Under the pieces are notes generated by a model, which worked only from the letters and a program-made list of their open reading frames with translations, had not been told where the DNA came from and ran no database searches. A stretch of 64,000 bases of DNA, taken from positions 620,001 to 684,000 of the forward strand of contig QPGO01000019.1 in NCBI GenBank assembly GCA_008632985.1, given 5' to 3'. A program made the position numbers and the translations under genes. Below are positions 5,867 to 32,049 of the stretch, one piece after another (within the stretch, counting starts at the first letter, position 1; each line of letters opens with the position of its first letter). This stretch comes from Psammoneis japonica. Lineage: Eukaryota.

Positions 5867-6004
5867 ATTGTAGCAGCGCAGGGGGAAGGACAGACGCATC
5901 CACCTCCCACCGTACGCAGCCTTGAACGAACCTGAATGCCAATGGCATTCTTTGCAACTCGTCGCCGCCTATCGAGGCCGTAGTAGTAGTTGTAACTTTT
6001 TGAC
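5867..6004 (+). repeat. Split direct repeat A1 (138 bp; second copy A2 at 11941-12078)
   Basis: Ungapped alignment to A2 with 8 mismatches. Confidence 0.95.
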
Positions 6005-6037
6005 AAAGGGAGCGACATACGCCAACCTTGTCCTCTC

Positions 6038-8122: not shown

Positions 8123-10214
8123 GGACGAGGGCCGGCCAGCTCTAGAGCTGGCCTGCAGCCCTCCTCTGCACACTTGCCAGATCCGTGCCAGCAGTGCTCG
8201 CGCAGCAACGAACTAGGTGAGTTAGCAGAGGAGCACGTCAAACTCTTACAAACTTCAGGCTAGAGCCAGTTCGTTGCACATTTGCGCAGGGAGCCGTGTC
8301 TGGCCGAAAATGTTCAGCAGTCACCTCATCCAGCTGCCAAACTGCTTTCCGATCTCCGCAACGATGGAGCACCGGTCCAGTTTTCAACGGAGGACTGGAC
8401 ACCGGACCAGGTCCGGATGGCCACCGAGCGCGGAAGCCATCCGTCCACCAACGAGCACCTGGGTTTCCTCGAGTCGGACATGGCGGACATGATCCGAAAG
8501 CAATGCTGGACAGTCCTGCCGTTCCGTGAAGCCTGCAAGTTGCCCCACCTGCGCGTCTCACCGATGGGCGTGGTGCCACAACGCGACCGCCACCTGCGCA
8601 CCATCATTGATCACAGTTTCTACGGGATCAATGACGAAACCGTGAAACACGCCCCACCGGAGGCAATGCAATTCGGCCGAGCTCTCGACAGGTTCCTCCA
8701 CAGGATCTTTCGAGCCGATCCGAAGCATGGCCCAGTGCACATGCTCAAGCTTGATCTCTCAGACGGATTCCATCGCGTTGGGCTCCGCCCCCAGGACATG
8801 CCAAAGCTTGGGGTGGCCTTCCCAGTGAGTCCAGGCGAGGAACCGTTGGTGGCACTGCCTCTCGTCCCACCCATGGGCTGGACTGAAAGTCCACCATTCT
8901 TTTGTGTGGGAACGGAAACTGTCGTTGACATTGCTGACAGCTGTTTGCCCACATCGTGGGACCCTCCGATTCACCCACTCGAACAGGCGGCATCCACTCC
9001 AGTGCCCCACGACGACACCATGCGCATCGATGTGCCACCGCCTTCCACTGCAGCTCTAGCCAGCCATGTGTCACGCCTTCCTTCTCCCACCGCACTTCAT
9101 CGCAGACACCAGCGCGGCTCCCAACCGTTGGAGCACTTTGATGTCTACGTCGACGACGAGATGTGCGCCACACAAGGATCGAAAGCTCGCCTCAACAAAT
9201 TATGTCGCCGCCTCTTGCACATCAACGACCAAGTCTTCCGGCCCAACACACCATCCGATGCTCACTGGCGGCGCGAGACTATCTCGCTCAAGAAGCTCCT
9301 CAAAGGTGACGCGTCCTGGTCTGCGGTCAAAGTTGTTTTGGGTTGGCTCATTGACACGCTAGCAGGGACAATCCAATTGCCGCCGCATCGACGACAACGC
9401 CTCCTGGACATGCTTGCTGACACCATTCCACGTCACCGCACATCCAACAAGCAATGCCACAAACTTCTCGGCGAAGTGCGCAGCATGCTGTTGGCGGTTT
9501 CCGGCGGCGCTGGCCTGCTCTCCAACCTCCAGCACTCTCTTGCCACCTCGAGTAACTCCCGCACTCGAATCAACCGTCATGCGCGCCGCCAACTCCAAGA
9601 CTTGCACACCTTGGCGGCAGACATTGCCTCTTGTCCCACGAGGCTCGCCGAACTGTTCCCTGCCGCCGATGGGCACTGCTGTGGTGCGTGCGACGCAGCC
9701 AAACCAGGGTTTGGCGGCGCGTCATTGCCAGGTCCCCTCGACGACTTCCCTCCGACCGCCTGGCAAATTCCACTGCCACCGGATCTGCAAGCTGCCATTG
9801 TCTCGGACGACAACCCCGATGGCACCACAACAAACTCTGACCTCGAACTCGCCGGAACTGTTTTGTCAAGAAGCCGTCGTAGGCATCACCGTCGATGTCA
9901 GAGAACGCACGGTCCACACGTGCTGCGACAACACCCCCGCGATTTCTCGACGCGGCAAAGGCTCCATCACCACCAACGGCCCAGGCGCCGATGTCCTGCG
10001 AACCAGCAGCCTGCAACAACGCAAGCTCCGACATGTCTCCCGCTTTCATTGCATGCCTGGCCCAGCAAATCTCCTTGCCGACATGTGCTCCCGCAAATTC
10101 AGCACACCGTCTCACCTCCTTGCCACTCTCACTTGCCTTGCCCCACAGACGAAACCTTGGCAAATGCCACTCCCGCCGCCCAACATCGTTTCTTTGCTGA
10201 TCTCCACCTTGTGA
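8118..10214 (+). pseudogene. RT-RNase H ORF2 of the Ngaro-like element
   Basis: SPMGVVPQRDR, LKLDLSDGF(H)R, PMGWTESPP, YVDD, CDAAK.GFGG, NSDLELAG, CDNTPA motifs; in-frame TAG at 8261-8263 and frameshift near 9865. Confidence 0.88.
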
Positions 10215-11731
10215 CGGCAAAGGCCCGCGAAGCTGTCACTGACAAGCAAGCCTGTGCCACGGACACTGTCTGGGCCAAATGTTGGTTGCCATTCCCACCC
10301 GACATCAGAGTTGAAGACCCTCTCCTCACCGGTGTCCAAGACAAAATCCCGATGCTCCAAGTCTTTGCCTGTCGCCTCAGGGATGGACGCCTCAGCCATG
10401 GCGGCAACCCAATCTCAGCTCTGCACGTTCGTGACGAAGTCCTTCATGTCGCGAAGACGTTCACCGAACTGGGGGCCCCGGACCCACGTTTAACGCCACA
10501 TGGCACCATGGATCCACGTCTCACTCGCCTGCACAGCGCGTGCTCCAAAGACGATCCACCTCCGAACCGTGTTAAACCTCTCCCAACACAAACAGTGCAC
10601 CACGCGCAGGCCCTTGTCGACAAATCTTCCCCACTCGACAACGCCATCATCGACATGTCCTGGATTGGGCTCTTCCACCTCTTGCGACCAGGTGAACATT
10701 GCAAAAGCAAAGACAATGATCCCTTGGTCTTGGCCGACATCAAGCTGCTCATTGGACAACGAGCACTCGACCACTTGACCTGTCCATTGCCGCAGCTGTT
10801 CCTCGCTGCACACAGCAGCATCACCTTCAACATTCAGAAAAACCGAGAACGCGGCAAAACGGCAGGTCACGCTCGAAGCTCACACTCCAAAGTGTGCCCC
10901 ATGCTGCCATCGCCCGCCACGTGCATTGCCTGCATTCAAATGGCGCCAACGCTTGAACAGCCCTGTGTGCCGTGCGCCTCGGCAGATGTTGGGGGACGTG
11001 TTCCAGCTCTAGGTGGGACCTCGTGCTGCTGAACTGTGACACAATTATTTTTTGTCATCCGTCGTATGTTTCGCACGTACATTTCTACGTGTTCCATTGT
11101 AAAAAATTGTTCCACACTGCCTGTTTTGCGAAGCCAAAGGCTTTCTGTTGTCTGCACTTGTGTCAATAAAAATGCGCTGGGCACATTCTTTAATGTCTAA
11201 AGAATGTGCCCGGGCATGCTGTAAAGAATGCACTTAAAGTGTGGAGGAGGAGATGCATTCGCAAAATTGCCTCTTTTTCTGTTGGCGATCATTCATGTGT
11301 CCATTGCTCAACGATTTTACTGCGGAGCTCGCACGTAGAATTCTGCGGGCCCAATGTCACAAAAAGTCCCACCTAGGACTGGAACCCGTCGGGGTCACGT
11401 CACAAGCCGTGCCATCACCAAAATGCTCCAAGTGTTGGCCGCCACCTTGCCACATCTGGGCTTCCCACCCAAGGACGTCACCGCACGTAGCCTCCGAGCA
11501 GGGGGCGCCACGGCACTCCTGTGCACCAAAGCAGACACCGACATCATCCACCTCGTCGGACGATGGAAATCCAACACCATGTTTCGACACCTTCATGCCC
11601 AAGCGCTGCCGCTGATCGCAGGACTCTCCACGAAAATCCTGAACCACGGCAACTTCACGTTACTCCCGGGTTCCGACGTCCCCCCCGTTGCACAAAATGT
11701 CATCAATCAAGCCAAAGCACCCGCCAACTGA
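10150..11731 (+). pseudogene. Tyrosine recombinase ORF3 of the Ngaro-like element, interrupted by a MITE
   Basis: DPPPNRVKPLP, LLRPGE(H)C, QKN, RSLRAGGATALL, VGRWKSNTMFR(H)LH; frameshift ~10900, TGA ~10955, insertion 10995-11390; start approximate. Confidence 0.88.
10995..11390. mobile_element. Non-autonomous DNA transposon (MITE), 396 bp, ~25-bp imperfect TIRs, GGGG target-site duplication
   Basis: Left GACGTGTTCCAGCTCTAGGTGGGAC vs reverse-complemented right GACGGGTTCCAGTCCTAGGTGGGAC; GGGG at 10991-10994 and 11391-11394; excision restores YR frame LGRCWGHVTSRAITKML. Confidence 0.85.
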
Positions 11732-11810
11732 CGGGTTCACATCTTTGCCCACCCTCAGCTCCGCTTCTGGCCCAACCCCTTGTCACTTGTCGGCGCTCCA
11801 AGAGTGGCAG

Positions 11811-12236
11811 ATCGGAGGCGGTCTCTGTTGCTGGTGAGCCAAAAGAGGGCAAGATGCCCCAGCAAAGCGCTGACACCACCAACTGCCACCTCCCAACTAC
11901 AGTGGGACGCACCCCCCAGCAATGTTGGTGGCAATCAGCCATTGCAGCAGCACAGGGGGAAGGACAGACGCATCCACCTCCCACCGCACGCAGCCTTGAA
12001 CGAACCTGAATGCCAATGGCATTCTTTGCAACTCGTCGCCGCCTGTCGAGGCCGCAGTGGCAGTTGTGACTTTTTGACCCTCCACTCCCACCCAGTGCCG
12101 CCTCATCGGAGGTGGTCTCTGTTGCTGGTGAGCCAAAAGAGGGCAAGATACCCTAGTGAAGCGCTGACACCACCAACTGCCGCCTCCCAACTATAGTGGG
12201 ACGCACCCCCCAGCAGCGTTGGTGGCGAACAGCCAT
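11811..12236 (+). repeat. 3' split repeats B1-A2-B2
   Basis: B1 11811-11942 and B2 12105-12236 are 132-bp direct repeats flanking A2. Confidence 0.93.
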
Positions 12237-12766: not shown

Positions 12767-13981
12767 TTACTCCTCACGATAGTCACACTTTAAAATAAAG
12801 ACCCCATGAGAGTTACCGGTAAGAGCACCCAAGGCATATCCAAGAACCAAGTCCCCGTCCTTTGGACTCTTCTCGGATAATTCTAGACGATGATGCAAGG
12901 CGCATCCAACCGAAGTGCCCGCCAGATTGCCAAACTTGGATCCAATAACAGACGTCTTGTCGGCGCATTTGAAATGATCACACACCATGTTGATGACTTT
13001 GGGGTTAGCCTGATGAAACACAATGTGTTGAAAAGATTTCAACGAGTAACCATACTTGGCCCTCAAGGAAGTAAGCCAATAACGAAGACTGTCTGGTATA
13101 GCCTCGGGGCCTTTTGGGTTGAGGCAGAACACATCCATCGGATCACCGCCATCGTCGAGGTTAATAGAACCGCGCGACGAAATGAATAGATCGGGATCAC
13201 AAACAATGTCTGCATCCAGCAGCTTGTAGGTGCGCTTTGGTAGGTTTTTCGTCGAGGTGGACAAAATGCAGGAGAAGGCTGCGTCTCCAAAAATGACGCA
13301 GTTGATCCACCGGAGAAGGTTGTTGTCCTTGCAGAGGGCCTGCCTGTGTCTCTCTTCGACTCCAAACTTGGAAGTGCAGTTGCTAATCACAATCGCGACG
13401 TTGGTGTTCTCTGGTGACTGAAGAAGCTGATTGGCCATCCTGAGTGCGTGAACCAATGCCGGGCAACCATAAGGCAAAATAATGAGCTGGAGTCTCTTGG
13501 AGAGCTTGGGGTATCGCTTGTACCAGTCAATGCCAGCTTGATTGAAATAGACATTGTCCACCGTACAGGAAACGTAGATCAACACGTCAATATCTTCCAC
13601 CTTGGTCTGCGCTTTCTCCAAGGCCTCATCAAAGCTGCGGAACATGAGCTCTTCCTCCGTGATTTCGCCGTCAAACTGCATTTCCTCGGGAGGGACACGG
13701 CCCTCCATCCCTTCTGGCTTCCTTCCTATAGCAATGTGCGTCATGTTTAGGTATCGAACAGCCCAGTCATCGGCTAATCCTTTGCCATTTTTTGGGTTGT
13801 GAATCCCATACTGTTCACGAAGTCCCCGGCAAATAGTTTCCGTAGAGATACTGGCTCCTGGTACCCCATTAAAGCCCGGAATGGCGCTGGACATGCCACG
13901 AATGCGCACCGTTAGTTCGCCATCTGCCTGACCATGAGTCCTGCGCTTCGTTGATCGAGGTGCTCCACATATAAAGCGCAT
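12767..13981 (-). CDS. 3-oxoacyl-ACP synthase III (FabH/KAS III)-like condensing enzyme, intronless
   Basis: Cys-His-Asn triad motifs PYGCPALVHAL, IVFHQANPK, FGNLAGTSV; IFGDAA; first ATG at 13981. Confidence 0.8.
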   Translation of the reverse strand: MRFICGAPRSTKRRTHGQADGELTVRIRGMSSAIPGFNGVPGASISTETICRGLREQYGIHNPKNGKGLADDWAVRYLNMTHIAIGRKPEGMEGRVPPEEMQFDGEITEEELMFRSFDEALEKAQTKVEDIDVLIYVSCTVDNVYFNQAGIDWYKRYPKLSKRLQLIILPYGCPALVHALRMANQLLQSPENTNVAIVISNCTSKFGVEERHRQALCKDNNLLRWINCVIFGDAAFSCILSTSTKNLPKRTYKLLDADIVCDPDLFISSRGSINLDDGGDPMDVFCLNPKGPEAIPDSLRYWLTSLRAKYGYSLKSFQHIVFHQANPKVINMVCDHFKCADKTSVIGSKFGNLAGTSVGCALHHRLELSEKSPKDGDLVLGYALGALTGNSHGVFILKCDYREE

Positions 13982-15045
13982 GCTGGATGAGTAGTCTACG
14001 TTCGAAACGTTCAAGAGTACAAAAAGGACGACTACTGACTGCTGACTGCAGAGTAGGGGTAGAAAATATCACAGAAAAGATGTAACCGTTCGCAAAAATA
14101 AATTTGAAAATTGGGTGTCTTGTGGTCGTCTGTGTCGGTCGTGTGAAGAAAAAAAGATCGGGTTCAACGGTCATTGCCAAATTTCAAAATTTTAAAATCA
14201 CTGAGTATACGAAAACAAGACGAAAAGAAATCGAAATACTTCTATTCCCATCTAAAAGTCTGAATAGTTTTATATGTAATACTCATTGTAGGTAGTTTTA
14301 CGCGCCAAAACGAAAAATTTAAATTGCTGTATATGCAGTAGCGATAATTTTAATATATTTCGTAATTTTGTGACTGGATATTTCTGAATAGAAGAATTCA
14401 ACCCATATTCCCAAGATTTACAATGTTAATGTAGTTCTTTAAAGCATGGTTATCAACATTGATTTCGATTTTGTCTTTCCCGCGCAAATTTTCAACACCC
14501 GCCAATCCCTCTGCACACACGACCCATGGAATTGCGGGCTGGTTCATTATTCGGATTATTCGCATGGATGCCTTCAAGCTAGCTTCAAGTACCATAGAAA
14601 GAGAAGATATTTTTTGCACTTACAGTATTCGTTCCTCGCTCCTGGGTCCCTTGCTGCTTACAAAGTTCTTAGTTATATCGAATGCCTCATTACTTCTACC
14701 TATATCTACAGAGCATTGTATATCCACGGCTCTCCATGAAACCCGGGAAATGTATCACACCTTGCCTTGTAGTTTGCTTTTCGCTCCCATTTCAATCTAG
14801 CTTGAGTGCACTCGCTACTAGGAGCACTGTAGCTTGGTATTTAACTCTAAGCTCTAGAGCTAATTTTGATGCTATCTACTACGATGTTCACTACTCCCGT
14901 GATGCTGCACCTCATTTCACGCGATTGGAAACGACGATTGTTTAGAAGGGGTGTGTGCTTTGACTGGCGCAAAGGCGTGCACGAGCAGAACTGAATAGTA
15001 TTGCCAAATGCATCATCTCAGCACCAATAAGTATTCGAAAATATA

Positions 15046-15951
15046 TCAGTTACCGGTCTCGGGCAGTGGAAACGCAATCGGCCACGTTTCATTCTTCCCA
15101 CCAAAGCGAGTCGGTAAGTTCTCTTCAGAGATATACTTTAGCAACCTTTTCTTGTCCTTGTCACTGTGGGCGGGATTGATAAAAGCGATCCTTTCGACTA
15201 CCCGCTTTGGACACATTGGACGAAAAACTCTCCAGGGAATCTGGATCCAAACCGGAGCGTTGCAAACAAACAGGCTCTGAAGCATCTGAGGATAGAAATT
15301 TTCCATCGTGTGATTGACCTCAGCGTCGCGTCTACCCATCTCATAGCTAAGGCCCGACAAACGTGTCCCTTCCAGATTGAGCAGACGAACACTCTTGGTT
15401 AACCGACCTGTAGTTCGGGTCACATAGTCGCACCACTGGTGTGTCCACTCCGCAATGTACATAAAGTAAGGAAACAAAACATCTTTAGACACGTTTTTGA
15501 CCAAGGCATGTTGGTCAACCAGAGCGAGAGTGAGCACTGCAATCACACCCATTTGAGGATCCGGAACTGCAAACCTGACTGCAGCTTCGGGGCAGTATTC
15601 AAGGTATTGTTTCACTGCTTCAGATGGGCAATCCTTTCCGACAGGATGAGCTCGGATGTCCGTTTCGTCGAGCTTGTTTTCATGACGAAAGTGCAACGTT
15701 TCTTTTGCAGCCTCGATAGACTTCTTTACTTTCATCTTGTGACTCAGTAGGAAGCGCAAGGTCCACAGATCATCGTGCTTGCGCGTGTCGTAAAGCGGGT
15801 CTTCGACTAGTGCTTTACTGACTTGGTCGATTCCAATTCGATGCTTTTCAATGAGATCTCTCACGGTTGGTCGATCATCTTGATTGTGAACCGGAGGAAT
15901 GGGGTCAGAGACAGCGGTACCGATACCTTTCATCCACGGCCAAGACGTCAT
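15046..15951 (-). CDS. CRAL-TRIO (Sec14-like) lipid-binding protein
   Basis: DDLWTLRFLLSHK, ENFYPQMLQSLFVCNAP, ISEENLPTRFGG motifs; start at MTSWPW inferred. Confidence 0.82.
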   Translation of the reverse strand: MTSWPWMKGIGTAVSDPIPPVHNQDDRPTVRDLIEKHRIGIDQVSKALVEDPLYDTRKHDDLWTLRFLLSHKMKVKKSIEAAKETLHFRHENKLDETDIRAHPVGKDCPSEAVKQYLEYCPEAAVRFAVPDPQMGVIAVLTLALVDQHALVKNVSKDVLFPYFMYIAEWTHQWCDYVTRTTGRLTKSVRLLNLEGTRLSGLSYEMGRRDAEVNHTMENFYPQMLQSLFVCNAPVWIQIPWRVFRPMCPKRVVERIAFINPAHSDKDKKRLLKYISEENLPTRFGGKNETWPIAFPLPETGN

Positions 15952-17069
15952 GATGTGAAAGTGATGTGAAACTGAAAAATAGAAAAACGGGAGAACATAA
16001 AATAATGAGGGACCCCATAACCCACATAACCCGCCCGCCGCCGCGCACACCATCCACCTCGTGCGTTACGACCCTAACTTTTTCCGTACCCACGCGGTTT
16101 CGCGCGATTGCCCTATTTAAACAAAATTTTCAATTATGAAGAATACCAACATAAATAACAAAACTTTTCTATTCAAATAAATACAAATAAATGTGTGCTG
16201 TTTCGACCGTGACAGTTTTGTCTAATGGCATTACAAGCCCTATCATAGGACAGACTTTGGACCTGTAGTTTGGACAATTGCGAAGAGATCCGTGCCATAT
16301 ACACAACCGGACGACACATCTGAATGGACTATGGCAATAGGGTGCAAAAAAGTGACGGACAGACGCATACATACTGGGGACGTATGTAGACACCATGGAA
16401 GAGTGACTTTTGGCGATAATTTCCGAAATCTTCTGTCCTATTCAAAGTTTTGCATTATGCATAGGTTTTGTCAGCAGGGCTGTGCACCCTGCTTCATAAG
16501 TGTCTAAACTAAATGTCTATGGGTCGAAATGTGTTTTAAGCCGAGTCATTCTTCTGAAGCTGCTGACAAAGAGGAAAGGCAACATTTTCTATTCAAATAA
16601 TATAACACCAGGAAATATGTGATTAAATATATAAATAATAATGAAATAACAATTAGGGTCTGCGGGAAATCGCGGATTGAGGCGAAAAACGCAAAAAATC
16701 TATAGCAGAAATGTTAGAAGTAGTGTGATGACACATTGCATCTAGCAGTAGCACCGGTGCGATTTCAGCCTAGAGATTATGAACTGTGCTGTTTTACAAA
16801 AAGAGAACAGTGCCCAGGCCTTTATAGAAATACTCATCATTGCTTTTGAGGTTGCCTTGCGCACTGTCATGTTCTCAGAATCGGAAACTGCGGCATGTCG
16901 TGAAAGCCGTCGAGTCCCTGCGCCGTCGCCGAGCATTGGTGCTGTGCCAGGCTTGACACCTTCAACTGGTGGGTGCCAATTTGCCATGGATGGCACCAAC
17001 TTTGGTTCACCATCTGTTCGCAGGGCTGGAACAAAGAAAAACAATGTTTCCAAAGAAAATTGTTCTGTC

Positions 17070-18072
17070 CAATTGTAGATCCTTGTAATCTGCGTTAAAA
17101 AGTGGTTCACCATTTTGAATTGCAAGCTGTGTTATGACAGCTACAGCCTGAAATACATCGGCATGCTTCGACAGTGGTTTGTGGCGAAACCTTTTCTCCA
17201 GAATTGCCCAATTTTTGAAGCGTTCGTGCACGTCTCCTGTCGATTGAGAGCACGCCTCTGCATTTCTTCCATCTCCTTCGGGTTTGCAAAACTGCTGGGG
17301 CACTTAACATGGATGGGGGACTCACCCACACACCCATCGTCAGCCTCCATGCGTTCCCCTTGTCCAGTTCCGTCTTCAATGCCGATCGAAAAATGTCCAA
17401 GTCGTTGTGCACACCGGGCGCAAAGGGCCCATTAATCCACACAATGTGACCGGTCAAAATGCATGCTGCACTTCGTAACGAAGTCCGCAGTCATTGAATT
17501 TATGAGAGTAAAACTTCCTGCCGTGATTCGGGACACGAAAGTCTGTTCCGTCCACAGCAACTGGACAATCGTTTCCGACGTCACCAGTGCGGCGATTCTC
17601 CCAAATCATCTGGGCAGAACAAACAACAACACAAATGATGCGGGTGAGAATCAATTTTTTGAAAAATGTGGAAATGTTGTCGCAATTGGGCACTCACCAA
17701 GCATGGCTCGAGCAATGCAATGGCCTTGATCATTGGCCACTTCCATGTTCGGAAAGTTTTTTCGTCGACTCCCCCAGCTTTGCCGGCAAGGTCAGTTTCC
17801 TTGCCATCAGATTTCAAAAAATTAAGTGCCCACAGCATGTGGCAGGCATTTGCTCCGTGGGGCAGCACGTCGTGGTGGACGAGGAGGTTCCACAGCGCGA
17901 GAGCCACGATTGGGCCGCAACCAAAAAACTCACGAAAACGCCTGTCCTCGGTCATTGTGGCGCCAAACTTCTTGTCACCTCTGTTCATCATTCCACGCCC
18001 CAAATTCATGAGGTCCTGCAGTCCGAGGGCAAGCCAGCGCATCCTCTTTTTATCTGGTTGAAAAGCGGCCAT
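17070..18072 (-). pseudogene. Harbinger DDE transposase (DDE_Tnp_4-like), one intron (~17610-17696), about three frameshifts
   Basis: FREFFGC, VDEKTFRTWKW, VAVDGTDF, YSHKF..GLRYEV, TGHIVWINGP, EADDG(C)VGE, ERFKNWAIL..RFRH motifs across frames; 3' end approximate. Confidence 0.85.
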
Positions 18073-18842
18073 GGCGAGTGGTGGGCCGGAGCAAAACAAT
18101 GTTGTCTCAGTGTGAAGCATGAAGCGCAACAACAAAATCTCAATGATTGGTGGGACTGGGATGTCTTCCAGTGTGGACCGTAGCAGTGCCACTGCGCGGT
18201 GCGCACGTGGGACACTGCCTCCATGATGCGCAGATCTCTCGTTTAGCTGGGTGCGTGACGTGATGCAGTTGGATGTTTTTGTAGCTCTTGCGCAGAAAAG
18301 ACGCTTTTTTTTTTAGGCGAGCTCACGCGTTTTCTGCCACACATTTTTAGAAAGTGTGACAAAACTTTGGCTCAACGGAAAGTTGTGGCCACAGACATTT
18401 TGCTGCACATCCGGGTTTCTTCTTCAATCCCACAGGATTCTCAGTGCACTTTCTACACGAGCTTAGAGAATCCGGATGTACAGCGAAAAACTGTGACCAA
18501 AGCTTTACATCCGGGTCTTTGTGTGACGTAGCTGCCAGCAGTGATTCTACGTAACATCCGGGTTACATGCAAAGCCAAAGTTGCGCCATCAAAGTTTTTT
18601 GTCGAAAAGCTGTGACGCAACCAAATAGCCCACATAATCAGGGGCCCAAAAATGTGTGATAAAAATGTCATTTTCACGAGTTCGTTGTAGAGATGTGCTA
18701 GAGATCGCGCCATTTGTCCGTTGGTGTCGGTCTTGTTGATCGATCGTTTCAGAAAAACCAAAGCAGCTCTGCTGTTTGCTGTTCACACGGCACACTCAAC
18801 ACGGCCCACAACCCACAACAGGAGGAAGCCACGACGAATGCC

Positions 18843-20159
18843 ATGAGCAACGGCAGCTCTGCTCGTTGGACGAAAGAACACAACAAAAGGCTTGTGGAGC
18901 TTGTCAAAGCTGGCAAGATTGATCCGCAGCTCATTGACTTGCAACACGTCAAGAAGGCACACGAGAAGCACTTCAGTGACCTTCTGAAGTGTCAGACTTT
19001 CGCTCAGCAGTGCCGCAAGAAGTGCAAGCAGTTGGAAGTCGACGAACTTCTTGCAGGCAGGCGGAAGCAAGGCAAGCACCACAACAATGCCATTCTTGCT
19101 TGTTTTGTTATTCTTGTGCTCGTGCCATCGTCTGCCGGTGTCTGCTTTGATTGCACGACTTGCCACAGGCACCAAGCGACGCACCGAGGAAGAAGTGAAA
19201 GACCAAGAGGAGTCGAGCAAGGAAGAGGAAACCGAAGACGAATCCTCAGAAGACAAAGGCGCACACTCAAGTGACGAGGAATTTGGCACCAGCATGCCGG
19301 GCAAGACAAAGACCACCCCCAAGAAGTCCCAAGACGTGAACAACGACCTCGCATCAAAGTTCAAGTCGTCTGCTGTGATTTCGTCTTCTGGCAAGAAGAA
19401 GGTGGGGAGCAACAAGAAGGCAGACGCCTTTGTGAAGAAGGGAGCGATGACTCGTGAGTGTGGCTACTTTTTCTTAGCGTCTCCGTGGGCGGCGTCCGAC
19501 AAGCGCATGCACGTGACCGTGGATGTCCTTGTTCCGCCTTTCGCCACGTCACACTGGCACCCGAAGGTGTCTGATTGCGGCACCAAGGTGATCATCAATG
19601 AGCGCATCCCTTCTTGGATGTTTAGGAAGGATCGTGTGTGCAAATCTGTTCTCACTTCTAGGCTCTCTCTACAGAAGACCAAGTCCTGAAGGAAAGCGGA
19701 ATCGAGCAAGCCGGACAGGCGCTGCTCAAGTCTCAAGGCGTTGAAGAGACTGTTGGCAACGGCAAATGCCGCATGGTTCTCTACCGCCCCCACACTGTTC
19801 GCCTTCCATTCCCCTGTGAGAGTGATTTTTATTCTGCAAGCAGCAAGGCCGGTTGGAAGCTCGAAGCATTTGTCCATGACAACGAAGAACTTGTGGAGCA
19901 GGCGCAAGGTCACATGCTCCTTTCGATGGAGCTGGTGGCGGTGGAGAAGCCACTAGAAGAGGGCAAGGCAGTTGAAAGGATCAAGTTTCTTGGTCAGTCC
20001 CCTCTAGATGCTGCAATTGCCAAGAAGGAAGCGAGGCGCAGTCGTGAGGCACAGTGCGGACGTGCAGCGGCGGCGGGAGAGCACGTCAGCGGCTGTGATG
20101 ACATGGACTCCGATTCGGACAGTGAGGGCAACCTCAAAGATGATGATGATTACTTGTAG
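18843..20159 (+). pseudogene. Harbinger ORF2, putative Myb/SANT-like DNA-binding partner, with a likely intron 19072-19168 and frameshifts
   Basis: N-terminal ARWTKEHNKRLVELVKAG helix motif, acidic linker, position inside the TIRs opposite the transposase; splicing joins RRKQ to GTKRR. Confidence 0.65.
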
Positions 20160-20586
20160 GCATTGTTCTGTTTTTCTAAATAGCACAGTTTGTAATCTCT
20201 AGCCTGACATTGTAGATGCAATTGGCTTCGATGGCTTGGGCCTACCTGGCAGGCGTCCGTAAGATAAGTAAGACCGGACCCGCATTCGTCACATTTCTGC
20301 AAGATTTATGTGCGTTTTTCGCCTCAATCCGCGATTTCCCGCAGACCCTTACACTTGAGAGTTAAAAATTAGAGAAAATACCGGGACAAAAAATGTTGTC
20401 CTCAATAATATGACTCTGCTACATAGAGGTTGAAATGATATTCGCCATGATGATCTACATTATTTGTGTACAACGCCCAGAGATGACTTTTATTTTTTCG
20501 AAAATTCATCGGAACGAAATGACGAAACAGAAACAGCACCAAATTTACCACATTGAAATCAAAACACGAGGCTTTATCTCCCCGCT

Positions 20587-22601
20587 ATGACAGCCGCTGA
20601 GGAAGAAATTGAAGTTGACTTGGAGGAGCATGAAGAATTGGTTTTGGATAGTTTGGATGACACAGAGCACTCACGCGCTATCGAGTTGCCGAAACCGACA
20701 CCTGTGCATTTGGAGTACGGCGTGACCTTTTCTATTGAGACCGGTGAGAAGAAGAAGAAAGCGTTGTTGGAATGTGTTAAAGGAGAAGCAAAACCTGGTG
20801 ATTTAGTGGCCATAGTCGGAGCGTAAGTCGTTTCAACTTCGCTGATCAATTCGATGATAGCCATGACGGATCTTACTCATACATGCGCAGTTCTGGTGCA
20901 GGCAAGACCACACTCCTGACTGTTTTAGCGGGTCAAAAGTCTTCCTTTCGTGGCAGCGTATCCTTCAACGGCGTACCAATATATAAAGTACTGCAGAGCG
21001 AATCCCCTCTCTTTTGTTTCGTCCAACAAGAAGATTTATTCATCCCGAGCATCACTCCGCGGGAACACTTGATTTTCTCAGCACGTCTTCGTATTGACAG
21101 AAGCGTGTCTGACGAGGACAAACTCCGCCGTGTTGATGAGCTGTTGGAGGAATTAGGTCTAAAAAAGTGCGCAAACACTCCTATTGGAGGGGCCGGCGCA
21201 CTTGTCCGTGGACGGATCTCAGGTGGAGAACGAAAGCGTCTAAGCCTCGCGACAGAGCTCTTGTCGAATCCATCCGTTATCTTCACGGACGAACCCACGT
21301 CGGGTTTAGACAGCTTCATGGCTGAAACTGTGGTGGCAAAGCTTGGTAGCCTTGCTCGGGCGGGACATACGATCTTGGCAACGATTCATCAGCCATCCTC
21401 CTACGTCTTCTCTGCTTTTACAAAACTTCACTTGTTGTCGAATGGAAGAACCGCCTACTCAGGTACAACGTCAGGTGCCGTAGAATACTTTGCATCCATT
21501 GGAAAGCCGATCCCGCAATTCTTGAATCCAGCAGATTACTACATTAAGCTGCTGAGCATTCCAAGTGTCTCGGAGGAAGTCCTGGAAAAGTGGGAACAAA
21601 GAGCAATCGTTGAAGAAGATGCAAATTGCCATCGACGAAGCAAGCTCAGAAGGGCTTCGACTGTGAAGCTTATGCTCGCAAAGAAGAAATATGCTGTGTC
21701 CTGGTGTACACAATTCAATCAGCTCATGAAAAGGACAGTGTTGGCTTATAAGCGTGACGCAACACTCGGAAGGATTCGTCTGGGACAAACCGTTATAGTC
21801 GGCTTGGTGGTGGGGGCGATCTTTGCCATGCTTGGCAAATCCCCAATCAAGGCCGACAACGTCCAGTCAGTGAATGGTATTCTTTTCTTTTCTGTATTAA
21901 ATCAGAGTCTCCTTGGCTCAATAGGAGTGCTGCAGGTTTTCCCGCTTGAAAAGCCGATATTTTTGCGTGAAACATCGGCAAGTTCATACAAGACATCATC
22001 CTATTTCATGGCAAAATCCTTTGCAGAGTTTCCTTTCCAGGTGGTGTTCCCTTTTATTTTTGCAACCATTATTTACTTCTTAGTCGGTTTTGGTGCCGCC
22101 GGATCCGCCGGCTCCTACTTTACGTTCGTGTTGTTTGTTGTCTTGACGGCAGTTGCCGCAGTGAGTTTTGGATATTTCTTCGGGAGCATTGTTCCGAGCG
22201 TCGGACTAGCTCTGACTGTGGGTCCGTTATTTCTCATGGTAAGTTGTTATCTTTGTTGTATCTAGTCATTCTAGGAACGCATCGATCTGACGAATGTTTT
22301 CATTATGGGGTTGCAGCCGCTTATTATCTTCGGTGGGCTCTTTATGAATGTCGACCAAATTGATCCCTGGTTTGTGTGGATATCGTACCTGTCTTTTGTG
22401 CGTTATGGTTTTGAAGGAGTGATGATCGTGATTTGGGAGCAGGAAGGCGATCTTGGTCGCGCAGTTTTGGAATCATTTTCATGGAACGTCGACCACAAAT
22501 GGCGAAACGTTGGATGCCTAAGTGCACTCATTCTTGGTTCCCGAGTTCTGGCAATGGCAGCTCTCAAATTCCAGTCCGTGAACAAAACTAAAACGAGATG
22601 A
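20587..22601 (+). CDS. ABCG (White-like) half transporter; introns 20823-20890 and 22239-22316
   Basis: Walker A GASGAGKTT across intron 1, signature ISGGERKRL, Walker B IFTDEPTSGLDS, TIHQPS, then a multi-pass TM domain; GT-AG introns. Confidence 0.93.
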
Positions 22602-25492: not shown

Positions 25493-28088
25493 CTCCAAAA
25501 GCAAACCAAGAGTAACAATAACAACCACAACAACTGCAAAGAGGGCGTGTGTGTTTTTGTGTTTCGTGTTCGGTGTTTAGTGTTCGTGCTCTCTGTTCTC
25601 TGGCGTCAAGCTCACATCTCACACAAGATCAGAATACATACGGGGGTCGTGCCGACACGACAAGGTCAAATGACTCTGACACTTTGCTTGTAATAATTGT
25701 TGCTGAAAAAGTCATAATTGACAATGGCCTACAAAAAGACTTATAGAAAATCTTTGTCACTTGGGATTTGGACACTGGGCCTCGTTCGGTTGCATCTTGG
25801 TCTTTCCATTGATGTGCTGAGAAAGGATGATTGTTGCAATGTCATCTTGCTCAGCAAATCTGATCTTTTTGAATCCGCTGCACCCCACATTTTGATGCAC
25901 AGTGACTCGAGTGCACTGACCTTGTGGCAGCCCTTGCAGCCTGCAAGAAAGAGAGTCAAAAAACTGTTGGCAAATGCTCAGCAGAAAGTCGCCCTTTGGC
26001 TCACCTTCCTCAGATCCAACGCACAAATGACACGGGGTGGTGAGAACATCTCCCCACACTCACAGCATCAACACCACTGTCAACTCTCTTAAGATGACAA
26101 AGATCATGCACATCAAAGTTTCAGCCTGCAGCAAGGGCGCGGCAAACTCCTGCCTGCAGATGTGTCATTTGTGGACACAAGGCTTTAAAAGAAAAAATGG
26201 TGGCTGGCACAGCCTGCCAACAGACAAACCAAAATGTGTGAAGCCAACCACTGTGCTGCCTGCACAGAGGACCAACAAGCAACTTCATCAGCAGTTTTGC
26301 CCCCACTCAACTTTTGTCAAAGCAGGTGTCTTCCACAGCATGTGTGCCATTCCACAAGATCAGCTGGGTCCTGACGCCACTGTTTGACACCAGCACCAGC
26401 ATGACCCAGCATCTGTGCATGCAAAACCACCCCAAGCCAAGTGCCATCATTTTGCATTTGATTTGGGCACAATTCAACGTGAGTTAAACTTTAAAGAGAC
26501 ACATCTTTGAACAACAACCCCGTGCTTTGAACAAACCAAGTGCAAGAGTCAAACACAAAATGCAGTCATGGGAGGAAACACTGCCACAATTTTGAGAGTA
26601 AAGAGTGGGACAAGTGAGCAGGATGAAGGATCCTCAAGGACAATGGCAGCCACCATTCACCGTGCATTGTGCATGCACACCTGGCTGGCAACTGTTCCAA
26701 AGAGCACTGTCTGCAAGCTCCCAACTTTCTTGAAAAGTGCGGCACATGATGTTGCAGCAGAGTGAGAACAGTGACCCACCCCTTTGTTTGTGCGAGATGA
26801 CTTTTTGCTTGCATGGCTTGTGGCAAATGCATGTTTTTTCTGGAGCTCTAGCACACCACTCATCAAATCTCCCAAAGACAGCCTTTCTGGTCAAACCTCA
26901 ACTGCAGGGTCAATGAACTTGCAAGGATCTGAAAAATGTGAGGGGCAATGGTGGCACAAGTGACTGCCCTGCCATGTCGGTGCTTCTAAACAACAACAAC
27001 AACAACAACAAGTTGGCAAGAAATTCTCTCATTGAATGTGTGCTGCCCCCCCCTGATGGCTTCTCCAGAAAACCATTGGTTGCATGGGTCATTGCAAAAA
27101 AAAGCGTTGCAGCCATTCAACAAAAACATCCACAAAAAACAAAAAACTTGAGTCAACCCCTCATTGAAAAATTCTTTGATTCTTCTCTCAAAGGCAAAGT
27201 TGTCAAAGACACCATCAACAAGATGAAGGATGATCATGGCTTCAAGACACCAAAGAACACCATGAAGCTCAAGTGTCTCACTGCATTGCACAAGATCTGG
27301 GTGACAAAGATGGATTCACCAAGTCTCTGCCCAAGGGACTTGTCCACTTGGAAAAATCCCTTTGGCTTCCCACAAGATGATGAAGCAGGAGAAGACACCT
27401 TGCCACATGGAAGTTAGTTCACAGCAGATGAAGCTTCCATTGAAGAGTGTGTCAATGACAACCTCAGCGGGGGTGCTGGCAACAAGACTGGCAGCAGGAG
27501 ATCAATGAAGCAGAAGAAGAAAAACAAAGGAAAGAATCACAAAAATTCCCTCTCCTCATCATCAGCAAGCTCCTCCTTCTCTGACTCATCATCTGAATCA
27601 TCCTCATTGGCTCAAGCAGTGGGGGGATGAATTTCACTGCAAGAAAGAACAAGAAGATGATCAGAAAGATGATCTCAGCAACAACTTGTGTGAGATCATT
27701 GGGCTGGCAACATGAAGGACAAACCCATCACTCAGAAGGACAGCACTTTTTCAAAAATCAATTCCAGAAACTTCCTTTTGCTCAGATGAAGATGCACCTC
27801 CAATGATTAAGACCCAATGCTGAAAAGGATAACTGGGTTGACATGTGCCTTGGCATCAATGTTCAACAAGCCAAAAAACTTGTTGAGGCCATCAAGTTCA
27901 CCCTCAAAGATTTTTTGATGCATTTCTCAAGCTCAAGGTGCTGCAGAATGTGGAACACACTAAGATGTGCAGGTGGCCAATGATGATCTCCAATCAGATC
28001 AACCCAGGAAAACTGGAAAGAAGATCAGCAAGCTGCTTGGCAAGCCAGCAGAGCTGCGAGCCACAAAAGTTGCCAAACCTGCTGACAC

Positions 28089-28150
28089 TGTGGATGAAGC
28101 AAGACCAGCCCTCCAGCAGTGTGGATGAAGCAAGACCAGCCCTCCAGCAG
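28089..28150 (+). repeat. Perfect 31-bp tandem duplication
   Basis: TGTGGATGAAGCAAGACCAGCCCTCCAGCAG twice. Confidence 0.9.
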
Positions 28151-30859
28151 ATGTTTGTGAAAGCCAACAAGAACTGACCACTCAGACCCAAGGTTGATGC
28201 CAGAGCACTCACAATGCATCAGCTTGAATGAGGCTGATCTTGTTGACAAAGGAGTCATCCAGCAGCAGGCTCATCTGAAGCATGCAAAGACTCTCACACT
28301 TGACAATGTAGACCACAAGCACTGGACATTGCCAACCAGAACTCAGGACTGTCACTCCATGAGATGATTGTGGAGATCACACAACCCAACAAACCCGAGA
28401 TTCCTCAATTTGTGGAAGCAGGAATCCACCCCATGTCTCGAGGGGGACAAGAAAGTTGTGGTGGTGCATCACCCACAAGTGAAGTTGAAAGTGGTCCCCA
28501 TGGGACACACACTTCTCCCACACCTGTGTGTGGCAAGAACATGGAGAGGTTGTTCTTCCTCCCATCACATGCAGCCAACATGGAAGATGCCAGAAGATGG
28601 GATGACAAGGAGAAGCATGAAGCTGTGCACCCAAGAACAAACATGATGCTCAAGGACTTTGTGAGGACAGCAACTGTGACTTCAAGAATCTCAACAACAT
28701 TGACATCAAGGAAGGACAGGACAAACCAATGGAGAACTTGCCAGAAGTGCCAGACAATCCGATCAATCCTGCCATGCCAGGAGAAGGAGGCTTGGACAAA
28801 AACACAAGGGCTTCAGCAAGGAGAGTGCAAAAGGGCAAGTTGGCTCATGTTCCACCCAAGAAGACTGCAAACCCATGAAGGCTGACAGTGCCCACAAACA
28901 AGACAACTCTTTGGTGACTTCAAACACAGAAACTGCTGAGCAGACGCTGCACAATGCAAATGATCAGATGCACGCACTTTCAGCACTGGCACATCAACTC
29001 AAGGATGCAGCAACAAGAAAGAACAACAATGGACAAAATCCAGATGACAAGAACAGCACGTCCAGTGCCCCAGAGAGCAACTTCAAGATTGCAGATGGGT
29101 CTGATGACAAGAAAATGCCTGTTCATTTGGAATGGTCTGTTTGCTCTAACAGCAAAGAGAAAAGCATGTCCGGCAATGCCACGAAGGTGCCAGGGGAGGG
29201 AAGATGCATTCCTTCCATGGCATCCACAGCTCCATTCAAGCCAGCAAGCAAGGAAGCTCAGCTGGTGAGGGCAAGCAGTGGTGATTGAGAGAACCTGTGG
29301 TGGGTGGCCACATGGCTCCTTGACAAAAAGAGGCTGCTGCCAGGGAAAGAACAAGACAACCAAAAACACCAACAAACCTGAGTCGAGCTGCAACTGTGGG
29401 GCAAATTGCAACAAAAAAAGAGAAGACACACTCAGAGTGGCACTCCAAAATGTCATGTTTCACTTCCATGTCATTGCTTGTGCCGCCAACTCTGTGTCTC
29501 TTGGGAGGAGGAGATTTGGCTCCCTTGAATCTAGAGTTGAAATGGTGCATGTGAATGAACACTGGAGCGCAAGAGTGAGAACACCAGCACGCTGAAGACA
29601 GCACAAGAGCAACATCTTAACTCACCATCTTGCTGCTGCTGCTGCTGCTGGCACATTGCTTTTGCTTTTTACATGCAGGCTGGTGTTTGGATCAGTGGCA
29701 CCTGCAGCAAAGATCTTGAAATCAGGAGCATTGATGTCTCCTTCAACTTGTTTGACCATTCTGCTTTGATGGCTTCCCTCAGTTTTCTCACACAGGGTGC
29801 CAGAATTGAGTTGATTTCTGTGGGATGGAAGGAATGGGTGCACTGCAAATGACATCAAAATGCAGAGAGCATGCTGTCATTGCAGGTGAGTGAGGACCAG
29901 ACTGGCCATGCATCATGCAGACATGAGTGCCACTTGACCTCAACAGGCATTTGCTGCCATTGTTTGGGTGGCAACACACAAATTTTTTGAACAGCCGGTG
30001 CAGCGGCACTCTTCACACCCAAGTTTAGATGGAGACAGCATCCTCCAGCAAGCCTGTCCAACAAGCATGACTCTTTGACTGGTTTGATTGGAGGAGGGCA
30101 CCTCTGAGCCAACATGACTTGCTTTGGTCTTTCTGACTGTGACTCATCAAACCTCTTTTTTTTTTTGCTTTTTTCTCATTTTTCCACCTCTGTTGGAACA
30201 GGAACACTGACCACTGTGACTGGATCACATTGCAGTTGCTGTTTGTGACCAACACATGGTGAAATGCCAGATGTCACATTCAACAGGTGGCTTTTCAAAA
30301 CATGCCCAAGGAGAACTGGTTTTTTGTTTTGGCCATGAGCCCCCATGCTGCATGCATGCAGGACCCTTTGGAGGGTTTGGGATCACCCACCCCTCACCTT
30401 TGTGGAGCAGAGCTTGCACCAAAAGATTTGCTCCATGAGACTCCCAAGCACTCTAATGTCAAGTTGCTTCTCAGTGGTTCTTGGCTGGGATGTCAAGAGC
30501 TCACATTGGCAGCAGGCTTTTCTGAGTGCCAACTTGGGCCCCAATTGGTGATTGGGTCATTCTCCTGCATGCACTCCAGAGATGAAAAAATGCAAATGGT
30601 GCCCTCACCGACACATCATTTTGTCACTTGCAGAGTTCTGCATCCCAGACTTCCCCATGATCCACAATGATTCAACACAACTGAGGGAAGAGGCAGCAGG
30701 TGCAGCAAGCAACACCACAAAAGGAAGCAGCATGGCAACGCTGTGCCATGAACTGTTCAAATGCACACATGCACACAATCACAATGAACATGAGCAAATG
30801 CCACACCAAGCAATGTTTGGCAGTCATGACTGAGAGCTCCAGTCTTGGCTTTTCCAAGT

Positions 30860-31008
30860 GAAAGTTTGAGCAATTGCCCAAACTTGCATCCACCATTTGC
30901 TCAAACTTGGCAAGTTTGAGCAATTCCTCAAGTTTGCTGCAAGTTTGAGCAAATGCTCAAACTTTGAGATTGCTCAAACTTGCACAAGTTTGAGAAATTG
31001 CTCAAACA
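30860..31008. repeat. Cluster of short direct and inverted AAGTTTGAGCAA/TTGCTCAAACTT motifs (further copy ~31552-31570)
   Basis: Roughly ten half-sites forming AAGTTTGAGCAATTGCTCAAACTT-like dyads. Confidence 0.75.
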
Positions 31009-32049
31009 CATGCAAAACAACCTGTGTTGGCATGACACATGGCACTGTGACAACACAAAGATGATGCCAGCATTGGTGATCTGTTCACTGCAATTTTGAC
31101 TTGAAACACAATGAGTGTCAACATTCCAGCACATGTCAGTGCCCAGGCACACTTTGAAAAATGTTTTTGATTGAAACAAAAGGCAAAATGTTGTTGCATG
31201 AAGGTGTTCCTTGTTGGTCCCCACAGCCCCCCAAANNNNNNNNNNNNNNNNNNNNAACAAGCCTGTTCCACCAGAGCTTTCAAATTTTTTTGTGTGAGTT
31301 TGCACTGCATGTCTTTCATCAGATCATTGGGTTTCTTGGAGGCACTGTCATCAATTGTTGTTTGTGTTGCCATGGCACAATGGTTGTGATCATGTTGTTC
31401 ATTGCCAATGGCTGCAAGCACATTGTCTCCATTGCGTTTGTTTTGTGCTGACACTTGCATGCAGTAAAAGCAGCAATCACAGTGTGCACAGCAAGTGCTG
31501 CAAAGTGGTTTAGCACCAGTGGCATCAAATTTTGGACTCAAAATGCGCGTCTGAGAAATTGCTCAAACTTTCGCAAAAGGTTCAACAAAACATGATTCAA
31601 ACAGCACATTGTGACAGCTGCAATGGCAGCACATGTTTTGTTGCAAAAAACATCAAAGAAAGCAACAACAAAAAGCAACAGAAGCACTTCACACCCACCA
31701 TGTCTAAGAAAATGAGTTCAGCACTGGGAGACAGTGATGAAGCACAGCTGTCAAAACACCCAGCCAACAGAGTCTCAGCAACTCAAGTTGGAGACAGAAT
31801 GCATGGAAGGTTTTCAAAGTTTTCCCATGGCCACCAAGATTGCTTTGCTCCAGTCTGCAATCATGACAATGTGCTGCATGATTGCAACAAGACACTGCAT
31901 GAAAGCCACCATTGGAAACACTCATTGTTGTGATGGCCATTTCCATCTGCCACTTCTTGCCTTGAACGAAGCTGTCAAGCCCAGTGTTGGTGGACACAAG
32001 CATGCACAAAAGATTGGAGACAACAATGGCAATGAGAAAATCGTTGCCA

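What the first reader, a model, noticed from the sequence alone, without database searches (positions are those of the whole stretch)
16656..20348. Harbinger DNA transposon carries the same signature; ends and central promoter are spared; a splice donor appears hit
Gene bodies show Tyr->His/Cys (ADDGCVGE, QHVKKAHEKHF..LKCQTF). The ORF2 intron donor reads GCAAGC at 19072 (GTAAGT expected), and the probable transposase stop reads CAA near 17070. The terminal ~170 bp and the intergenic 18240-18700 keep many TA. A cut-and-paste element has no RNA intermediate, so RNA editing or RT error cannot explain this. The spared zones suggest chromatin-guided targeting.
Basis: partly seen in the sequence, partly recalled or inferred. 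Interest (0 to 1): 0.7.

Follow-up and report, generated by a model that had tools for sequence, protein, structure and literature searches.

The report
Position-dependent TA hypermutation of diatom transposon
Copies of a cut-and-paste transposon in a diatom have had about two thirds of their TA steps rewritten to TG or CA after they landed, and the same end escapes next to ordinary gene DNA but is hit next to other mutated DNA, so the unexplained mutator acts on DNA and appears to pick its targets by chromosomal neighbourhood.

Summary
The element (16656-20348; 43-bp TIRs, TTA duplication, DDE_Tnp_4 transposase) lies in a diatom genome. Five full copies differ mostly at TA steps (256 of 390 variable columns), in both directions, so the change came after insertion and on DNA. 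The Tyr>Cys/His, GC-donor and CAA-stop readings hold against sister copies and homologues. End sparing is real but conditional: terminal 200 bp lost 11 of 73 TA beside normal DNA and 49 of 72 beside TA-erased DNA, and three copies have one end of each kind. A sister family, a truncated copy and a short repeat agree. The 'spared central promoter' is mostly higher original TA density (rate ratio 0.79, not significant). The mutator prefers TAY, shows no transcription-strand bias or long runs, and sometimes co-edits a neighbouring A. Best reading: a TadA/ADAT-like DNA adenine deaminase acting in silenced, probably CpG-methylated domains that stop short of active promoters; enzyme and chromatin are inferred. 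Closest known: TpA hypermutation in Bigelowiella natans (2026 preprint). I found no diatom report in print. This scan noted the process, and position-dependent sparing, on other DNA of this genome.

The parts
16653..16655 (+). left target-site duplication TTA
   Evidence: empty-site allele with a single TTA in run X1
16656..20348 (.). PIF/Harbinger-like DNA transposon, about 95% identical to 4 other full copies and 1 truncated copy
16656..16698 (+). left terminal inverted repeat, begins GGG
   Evidence: I1, 95% complementary
16762..16856 (+). subterminal imperfect inverted repeats, matching 20127-20210
   Evidence: I2, I3
16656..16835 (.). spared left end in this copy; hit in the three copies whose left flank is TA-erased
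   Evidence: 1 of 13 lost here; 8 of 13 in L002, L003, L004
17073..18072 (-). DDE transposase gene (start inferred from homologues), frameshifted here at 17226 and 17355
   Evidence: PF13359 E 7.9e-7 on copy L006; 814 homologues incl. diatom proteins
17073..17075 (-). transposase stop, TAA>CAA in this copy
   Evidence: TAA in 5 of 5 other copies
17330..17332 (-). ADDG-Tyr codon, now Cys
   Evidence: copies C,C,C,H,H,Y; 117 of 120 homologues Y
17610..17697 (-). inferred transposase intron; donor GTGAG in 2 of 6 copies (this one included) and GCAAG in 4 of 6
   Evidence: position inferred from frames and from homologue P0001; no RNA
18240..18700 (.). central intergenic stretch with high original TA density; not significantly spared
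18843..19071 (+). ORF2 exon 1, possible Myb/SANT-like domain (lead only)
   Evidence: Atlas best score 0.85 Myb_Rap1; no Pfam match over cut-off
19072..19168 (+). ORF2 intron, donor GT>GC in this copy
   Evidence: removing it gives an open 1218-nt frame in 4 of 4 other full copies; donors
19169..20159 (+). ORF2 exon 2, 2-nt insertion at 19663-19664 in this copy
20149..20348 (.). spared right end in this copy; hit in the two copies whose right flank is TA-erased
   Evidence: 3 of 15 lost here; 11 of 15 in L003 and L005
20306..20348 (-). right terminal inverted repeat
20349..20351 (+). right target-site duplication TTA
16165..16600 (.). about 435-bp dispersed repeat in the left flank, fully spared here (0 of 19 TA lost)
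15046..15951 (-). host CRAL-TRIO gene whose 5' end faces the left end
20587..20823 (+). first exon of a host gene 239 bp from the right end (ABC-transporter-like by a Walker A motif read from the sequence; label recalled)
   Evidence: Pfam scan of this 79-aa piece found nothing

Best explanation
A host mutator converts A:T to G:C at TpA steps directly in chromosomal DNA after a mobile element has inserted (shown). It works site by site on either strand with a 5'-TAY preference (shown) and is confined to a chromosomal domain: long inserted elements are hit through their interior, the domain runs through an element end when the neighbour is also TA-erased, and stops about 180-950 bp inside the element when the neighbour is ordinary, mostly promoter-side, host DNA (shown). 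The domain is most likely the silenced, CpG-methylated chromatin that diatoms lay on transposons (inferred), and the chemistry most likely deamination of dA to dI by a TadA/ADAT-like enzyme opening a few bases at a time (inferred). The result is loss of Tyr codons, stop codons and GT donors in the element.
For: Spectrum: T[A]>G 476 of 1508 strand-targets, other A>G 31 of 7891, CpG C>T 144 of 2255, other C>T 9 of 6718. Flank dependence: 11 of 73 against 49 of 72; all 5 host-flanked ends rank below all 5 erased-flank ends, 1 in 252; rate ratios 0.12 and 1.09. Sister family: host-flanked end 3 of 26 lost, against 19 and 20 of 26. Truncated copy L006: 4 of 46 lost over 950 bp, others 23-30 of 46, then 9 of 11. 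435-bp repeat: 0 of 38 with both flanks normal, 209 of 218 with both erased. CpG decay is spared with TA: 0 of 57 in L006 against 2-9 of 57; 0 of 56 in five spared repeat copies against 12 of 48 in four erased copies of like divergence. 5 of 7 normal flanks face the 5' end of a long ORF, three with Pfam support. +1 pyrimidine x2.6, same trend in three other families; TadA-8e editors prefer a TAC motif on RNA (PMC9126838, passage). Same-strand neighbouring A>G: 27 of 38 events, 17.3 expected, p 2e-4. Diatom TEs carry DNMT5a-dependent CG methylation with H3K9/H3K27 marks (PMC9998398, section 9).
Against: No methylation, chromatin or RNA data for this genome. CpG loss at Harbinger ends did not differ by flank (1 of 49 against 3 of 46, p 0.35) although TA loss did. 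10 of 32 copies of a 396-bp MITE lost at most 4 of 33 TA inside TA-erased DNA, so an erased neighbourhood is not sufficient. The control for the bystander test (C>T near TA) was also mildly raised, 17 of 43 against 12.2, p 0.04. No deaminase fused to a chromatin-reading domain turned up in the ORFs scanned. Sequence alone cannot tell whether A or the T opposite is the base attacked. The 0.35 flank threshold was set after seeing the values (gap 0.21 to 0.50). Two of seven normal flanks show no clear gene start.
Confidence: 0.55

Rival explanations
1. Same domain targeting, other chemistry: short-patch error-prone resynthesis (Y-family polymerase misreading template T) triggered by repair in methylated DNA.
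For: TA loss co-varies with CpG decay; tandem TAA>TGG changes fit a short patch; no specialised deaminase found.
Against: A[A]>G is 7 of 2952 against T[A]>G 476 of 1508, far stricter than the WA pattern recalled for polymerase eta; transversions are rare (8 of 390 columns); no strand concordance between co-mutated TA sites even at 2-10 nt.
Confidence: 0.15
2. The thymine is the target: T in RTA context is modified (for example oxidised to 5-hydroxymethyl- or 5-formyluracil) in silenced DNA and then pairs with G.
For: T>C at RTA is the exact mirror of A>G at TAY, so every count fits equally; modified thymines on repeats are recalled from dinoflagellates (not checked here).
Against: No T-modifying enzyme family was searched, so no positive evidence; the TAY motif matches a known adenine deaminase preference.
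Confidence: 0.1
3. RIP-like, homology-triggered mutation: repeats are found by pairing, efficiency falls at repeat edges, and ends are hit by leakage from neighbouring repeats.
For: All targets examined here are repeated; ends next to other erased repeats are hit.
Against: Same sequence is fully spared at some loci and erased at others of like divergence; 950 bp of L006 with five homologous copies is spared; the Bigelowiella target is single-copy.
Confidence: 0.1
4. Targeting follows the element's transcripts (small RNAs or R-loops): transcribed parts are hit, untranscribed ends escape.
For: The right boundary falls at the ORF2 stop in both Harbinger families although it lies about 190 and 355 bp from the end; L006 lacks the central promoter and is spared over most of its length.
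Against: No template/non-template bias in either gene (TG fraction 0.56 and 0.48 against 0.49 and 0.52 expected); intergenic DNA is hit nearly as hard; trans-acting RNAs would not spare one copy's transposase half; ends are hit at full rate beside erased DNA.
Confidence: 0.08
5. Ends are kept by selection for transposase binding, or the pattern is assembly error.
For: Terminal repeats must be intact to transpose (own knowledge).
Against: 5 of 10 ends are hit at the interior rate; directions differ between copies, so changes postdate insertion; contigs of run X1 show the same transition classes (the run may be the source sample).
Confidence: 0.02

Closest known systems
TpA>TpG/CpA hypermutation of integrated NCLDV and virophage DNA in Bigelowiella natans (bioRxiv 10.64898/2026.01.13.699255; parts 1-4 of 5 of the text read, supplements not seen)
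   Same: A>G/T>C confined to TpA, both strands, local to foreign DNA; the preprint finds DDE endonuclease and RT domains enriched among TpA-poor CDS and proposes an ADAT2-like deaminase.
   Different: Here a diatom (stramenopile, not rhizarian); a cut-and-paste element read across dated copies; flank-dependent boundaries, a TAY preference and neighbouring co-edits, none of which the main text treats (0 hits for diatom, Harbinger, boundary, flanking, DNA transposon, context). No de novo rate was measured here.
Repeat-induced point mutation (RIP) of ascomycetes (recalled; no RIP paper read)
   Same: Post-insertion, dinucleotide-specific transitions on both strands that disable transposons; works like it as a mutational defence.
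   Different: Opposite chemistry: RIP makes TpA from CpA, this destroys TpA ([C]A>T 1 of 2580); repetition alone is not sufficient here.
TadA/ADAT2 deaminases and TadA-derived adenine base editors (PMC9126838 and PMC12398605, passages)
   Same: A>G outcome, 5'-T requirement with +1 pyrimidine preference, editing of neighbouring adenines.
   Different: Natural TadA acts on tRNA; no enzyme was tied to this process; the -3 T and +2 A penalties were not compared with any enzyme.
PIF/Harbinger transposons (features recalled; Harbinger-like elements in Thalassiosira pseudonana noted in PMC2806351, passages)
   Same: GGG-starting TIRs, 3-bp duplication, DDE_Tnp_4 transposase and a second ORF.
   Different: Duplications are TTA, TCG, TGT, TTT, TGT in the five full copies, not strictly TAA/TTA; Myb/SANT identity of ORF2 is only a lead.

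Membership tests
PIF/Harbinger superfamily | terminal inverted repeats | tested here: met
   43-bp arms, 95% complementary; present in all five full copies
PIF/Harbinger superfamily | 3-bp target-site duplication | tested here: met
   identical 3-mers on both sides in 5 of 5 full copies; empty site with one TTA
PIF/Harbinger superfamily | TAA/TTA target preference (recalled) | tested here: inconclusive
   TTA in 1 of 5 full copies; TCG, TGT, TTT, TGT in the others
PIF/Harbinger superfamily | DDE_Tnp_4 (PF13359) transposase | tested here: met
   E 7.9e-7, over cut-off, on copy L006; the window copy's own frameshifted pieces gave no match
PIF/Harbinger superfamily | second ORF with Myb/SANT domain (recalled) | tested here: inconclusive
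   spliced 405-aa ORF exists; Atlas leads to Myb clusters at 0.85 or less; no Pfam match over cut-off
Bigelowiella-type TpA hypermutation | A>G/T>C concentrated on TpA, both strands | tested here: met
   476 of 1508 against 31 of 7891; TG and CA about equal
Bigelowiella-type TpA hypermutation | local to foreign DNA, host genes spared | tested here: met
   TA O/E 0.13-0.18 in the element's gene regions, 0.47-0.60 in three neighbouring host stretches
Bigelowiella-type TpA hypermutation | de novo rate about 1000-fold over background, active in some lines only | not testable with these tools
   needs mutation-accumulation lines; copy comparison gives about 80-fold over other A>G, uncorrected for saturation
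Bigelowiella-type TpA hypermutation | homologous enzyme | not testable with these tools
   enzyme unknown in both; deaminase loci exist here but none is tied to the process
Fungal RIP | C>T transitions at CpA | tested here: not met
   [C]A>T 1 of 2580
Fungal RIP | triggered by repetition of the sequence itself | tested here: not met
   high-copy repeat 0 of 19 lost at some loci; L006 spared over 950 bp; necessity of repetition not tested
Fungal RIP | premeiotic timing and RID/DIM-2 dependence | not testable with these tools
   27 PF00145 matches exist; not classified into DNMT subfamilies

The most novel reading that the evidence does not exclude
Diatoms, like the distant alga Bigelowiella, own a natural DNA adenine base editor that is recruited to CpG-methylated silent chromatin, rewrites TAY sites in double-stranded chromosomal DNA, and is stopped by active promoters, so that TA loss is a permanent record of past heterochromatin borders and of a SAR-wide genome defence that mirrors RIP.
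Probability: 0.3. Interest if true: 0.9.

Novelty: new variant of a known kind. Interest (0 to 1): 0.7.

Why it matters
It removes RNA-level explanations for TpA erasure, since the target is a DNA transposon whose copies mutated separately. Five copies with every combination of flanks form a natural factorial experiment: identical sequence is spared or hit by neighbourhood, which makes the targeting rule directly testable with methylation and chromatin maps at named loci. The TAY preference and same-strand co-edits give a fingerprint for finding the enzyme; a natural editor of A in chromosomal DNA would matter for genome-defence biology and for base-editing tools. In practice, transposon ages and protein annotations in this genome are distorted: about 5% divergence between copies hides about 0.2% ordinary divergence.

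Tried and rejected
Central promoter as a protected zone: rejected after context correction. Ends protected by their own sequence or by selection: rejected. Transcription-strand bias: not found. Long strand-coordinated runs as in processive editing: not found at any distance from 2 to 300 nt. MITE as a test of host versus erased flanks: uninformative, 0 of 32 copies had two normal flanks, and the set is biased towards likeness to the window copy. DIRS-like copies as a test of ends: the four-copy alignment did not cover the ends. Use of the GC donor: no RNA holder listed, so untested. Enzyme hunt: PF00383 gave 9 matches (dCMP-deaminase-like, a TadA-like ORF with a hydrophobic N-terminus, others), PF02137 gave 4 matches at two loci, PF00145 gave 27 matches; the ORFs scanned showed no second domain of interest; introns and flanks limit this. 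DNA for homologue P0091 was not recovered; the 2 loci found are distant and not TA-erased (O/E 0.56, 0.77). Literature: searches gave no diatom TpA-hypermutation paper in the listings seen (20 of 35, 2 of 2, 15 of 593, 3 of 3, 12 of 91, 0); the library lacks most subscription journals. PMC9399415 was irrelevant. An earlier count said 256 of 371 columns; the correct denominator is 390.
Full report
Observation. The element spans 16656-20348 exactly. It has 43-bp inverted arms beginning GGG, weaker subterminal inverted repeats out to about 200 bp, and TTA on both sides. Contigs of run X1 join the left flank to the right flank over a single TTA, an empty-site allele (X1 may be the source sample). 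It holds 65 TA against 226 expected, with 196 the lowest of 1000 shuffles. TA O/E is 0.81 and 0.82 at the ends, 0.18 and 0.13 in the gene regions and 0.49 in 18240-18700; three neighbouring host-gene stretches give 0.47-0.60. The genome encodes many silicon transporters (24 matches) and the named transposase homologues are diatom proteins, so the host is a diatom.

Copies. The genome search found 4 more full copies and one truncated copy at 94-95% identity, plus a sister family at 72-78% (counts are lower bounds). Among the five full copies, 390 columns carry substitutions: 256 are TA against TG/CA, 103 are CG against TG/CA, 23 are other transitions and 8 are transversions. At 65 sites some copies read CA and others TG with no TA or CG left, which needs an original TA mutated separately on either strand. 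Polarised counts: T[A]>G 476 of 1508, other A>G 31 of 7891, CpG C>T 144 of 2255, other C>T 9 of 6718. So young copies have lost about two thirds of their TA while ordinary divergence is near 0.2%. Sites that mutated the same way in all copies are missed; the likelihood model conditions on this.

ADDG-x reads C,C,C,H,H in the full copies and Y in the truncated one; 117 of 120 homologues have Y. The transposase stop is TAA in 5 of 5 other copies and CAA here, at 17075-17073. The ORF2 donor is GCAAG in 3 and GTGAG in 2 of 5 copies, hence GTAAG before; removing 19072-19168 gives an open 1218-nt frame in 4 of 4 other copies. An inferred transposase intron shows the same: GCAAG in 4 and GTGAG in 2 of 6. 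This copy is also frameshifted at 17226, 17355 and 19663, which I could not separate from assembly error. No RNA holder was listed, so use of the GC donor is open.

Spared zones. The ends are spared only at some loci. Flank TA O/E splits the ten ends into five at 0.50-0.83 and five at 0.03-0.21. In the terminal 200 bp the first group lost 11 of 73 TA and the second 49 of 72. The groups do not overlap (1 in 252 with ends as units), and L002, L004 and L005 each have one end of each kind, so copy-wide load does not explain it. The difference is gone beyond 200 bp (5 of 5 against 5 of 5 at 200-300 bp). With sequence context in the model, rate ratios are 0.12 for host-flanked ends, 1.09 for erased-flank ends and 0.79 for 18240-18700 (p 0.07; site permutation 0.23). 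The centre and ends also began with more TA (6.3-7.5 per 100 bp against 2.6-3.8). The central 'sparing' is therefore mostly density and context.

Replicates. In the sister family the one host-flanked end lost 3 of 26 against 19 and 20 of 26, over about 355 bp from the ORF2 stop. Truncated copy L006 lost 4 of 46 over its first 950 bp where others lost 23-30, then 9 of 11 next to the foreign DNA that follows it; CpG decay is spared too, 0 of 57 against 2-9. A 435-bp repeat beside the window's left end was scored in 21 near-full copies of 30 fetched: 0 of 38 lost with two normal flanks (2 copies), 209 of 218 with two erased flanks (13 copies), and all-or-none with mixed flanks (three at 0-1 of 17-19, of which two look like duplicates; three at 18 of 18). 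Loss also rises with age (rho 0.82), but spared and erased copies overlap at 1.7-2.6% other divergence. Five of seven normal flanks face the 5' end of a long ORF 100-700 bp away: CRAL-TRIO, HDAC-domain and NOSIP-like genes by Pfam, two others without a match.

Against a simple neighbourhood rule: 10 of 32 copies of a 396-bp MITE lost at most 4 of 33 TA though both flanks are TA-erased. These ten all sit in CpG-poorer flanks than the 17 heavily hit copies (means 0.34 and 0.77, no overlap; rho 0.70 over all 32), with similar other divergence (1.5 and 2.4 changes, p 0.06). That fits a mutator that needs CpG-rich silent DNA, or later insertion into old blocks after a burst. CpG loss at Harbinger ends is lower than inside (4 of 95 against 137 of 1030, p 0.009) but not flank-dependent at this sample size.

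Fingerprint. On the mutated strand a pyrimidine at +1 raises the rate 2.6-fold; A at +2 and T at -3 lower it to about 0.4. The +1 and +2 trends recur in the sister family, the MITE and four DIRS-like copies. There is no bias by transcribed strand and no strand concordance between TA hits at 2-300 nt. A>G outside TA is raised within 3 nt of a same-strand hit: 28 of 1045 against 8 of 1114 (opposite strand), 5 of 1249 (kept) and 60 of 16623 (far), pooled over three families with the MITE left out; the MITE alone showed little (4 of 354). A site-level test gives 27 of 38 against 17.3 (p 2e-4), while a C>T control is mildly raised too (17 of 43 against 12.2, p 0.04). I rate the co-editing as likely, not proven.

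Mechanism. Shown: DNA-level, post-insertion, TpA-specific, both strands, site by site, locus-dependent edges. Inferred: the domain is silenced CpG-methylated chromatin (co-sparing of CpG decay; DNMT5a-dependent TE methylation with repressive histone marks in Phaeodactylum, PMC9998398 abstract and section 9), limited by active promoters; the chemistry is dA deamination by a TadA/ADAT-like enzyme (TAC preference of TadA-8e editors on RNA, PMC9126838 passage; bystander editing, PMC12398605 passages). Ordinary deaminase and DNMT loci exist, none singled out. Rivals: error-prone patch repair, thymine modification, RIP-like pairing with leakage, and transcript-guided targeting; the last gains from boundaries at the ORF2 stop in two families.

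Known and new. The closest case is TpA hypermutation of integrated viruses in Bigelowiella natans (bioRxiv 10.64898/2026.01.13.699255; parts 1-4 of 5 read; its supplements are closed and may hold context or transposon data). It already lists DDE endonuclease domains among TpA-poor genes, so a DNA-transposon target is hinted there but not dissected. I found no diatom report in the searches. It works like RIP but fails RIP's defining chemistry. The element is Harbinger-like, with two features inconclusive. Earlier notes of this scan report the process, the TAY rule and position-dependent sparing on other DNA of this genome; they are unchecked leads, and my counts were made independently. Verdict: new variant of a recently reported, mechanistically open kind; interest 0.7.

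Noticed in passing
window 16165-16600: About 435-bp dispersed repeat with 16-bp terminal direct repeats (solo-LTR/TRIM-like or MITE-like; not classified); fully TA-intact here, fully erased at many other loci.
   Followed up: partly
window 10995-11390: 396-bp MITE with 4-bp target duplications; 31 of 32 copies fetched have two TA-erased flanks, and TA loss is bimodal and tracks flank CpG content.
   Followed up: partly
window about 5870-12230: GC-rich element with split repeats and a tyrosine-recombinase-like frame read from the sequence (DIRS/Ngaro-like, label recalled, not scanned); TA-erased, CpG largely kept; several subfamilies at 82-95%.
   Followed up: partly
window about 26000-37000: Block with both TA and CG nearly gone (O/E about 0.02-0.2), an older end state than the Harbinger; 57000-59000 is TA-erased with CG partly kept.
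   Followed up: no
protein P0091: A transposase from a JGI metagenome, 54% identical to the query, has Cys/His at 5 of 5 Tyr-rich columns and no Tyr in 326 aa; 1 of 120 homologues shows this, a hint of the same process in other DNA. Its DNA was not recovered.
   Followed up: partly
L142 (G000:C301:34166-37723): A C5-DNA-methylase frame inside TA-erased DNA (O/E 0.07), possibly carried by a mobile element; broken look-alikes on C297.
   Followed up: no
window 16655/20349, run X1: Empty-site allele with 5 bp of small indel differences: the insertion is probably on one haplotype only.
   Followed up: partly
L002-L006 insertion sites: Target duplications TCG, TGT, TTT, TGT (and ATA left of L006) are looser than the TAA/TTA recalled for Harbingers.
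   Followed up: no
window 12767-14068 (-): Intron-free 433-aa frame with ketoacyl-ACP synthase III / type III PKS-like domains.
   Followed up: no
G000:C38:226311-230342: A 1511-aa open frame with three tandem silicon-transporter domains.
   Followed up: no
window 19465-19475, 17433-17509, 19623-19670: Some interior TA sites are kept in nearly all copies beyond what the three-term context model predicts (bin 19406-19555: 0.10 observed, 0.77 expected, 2 sites); unexplained.
   Followed up: no
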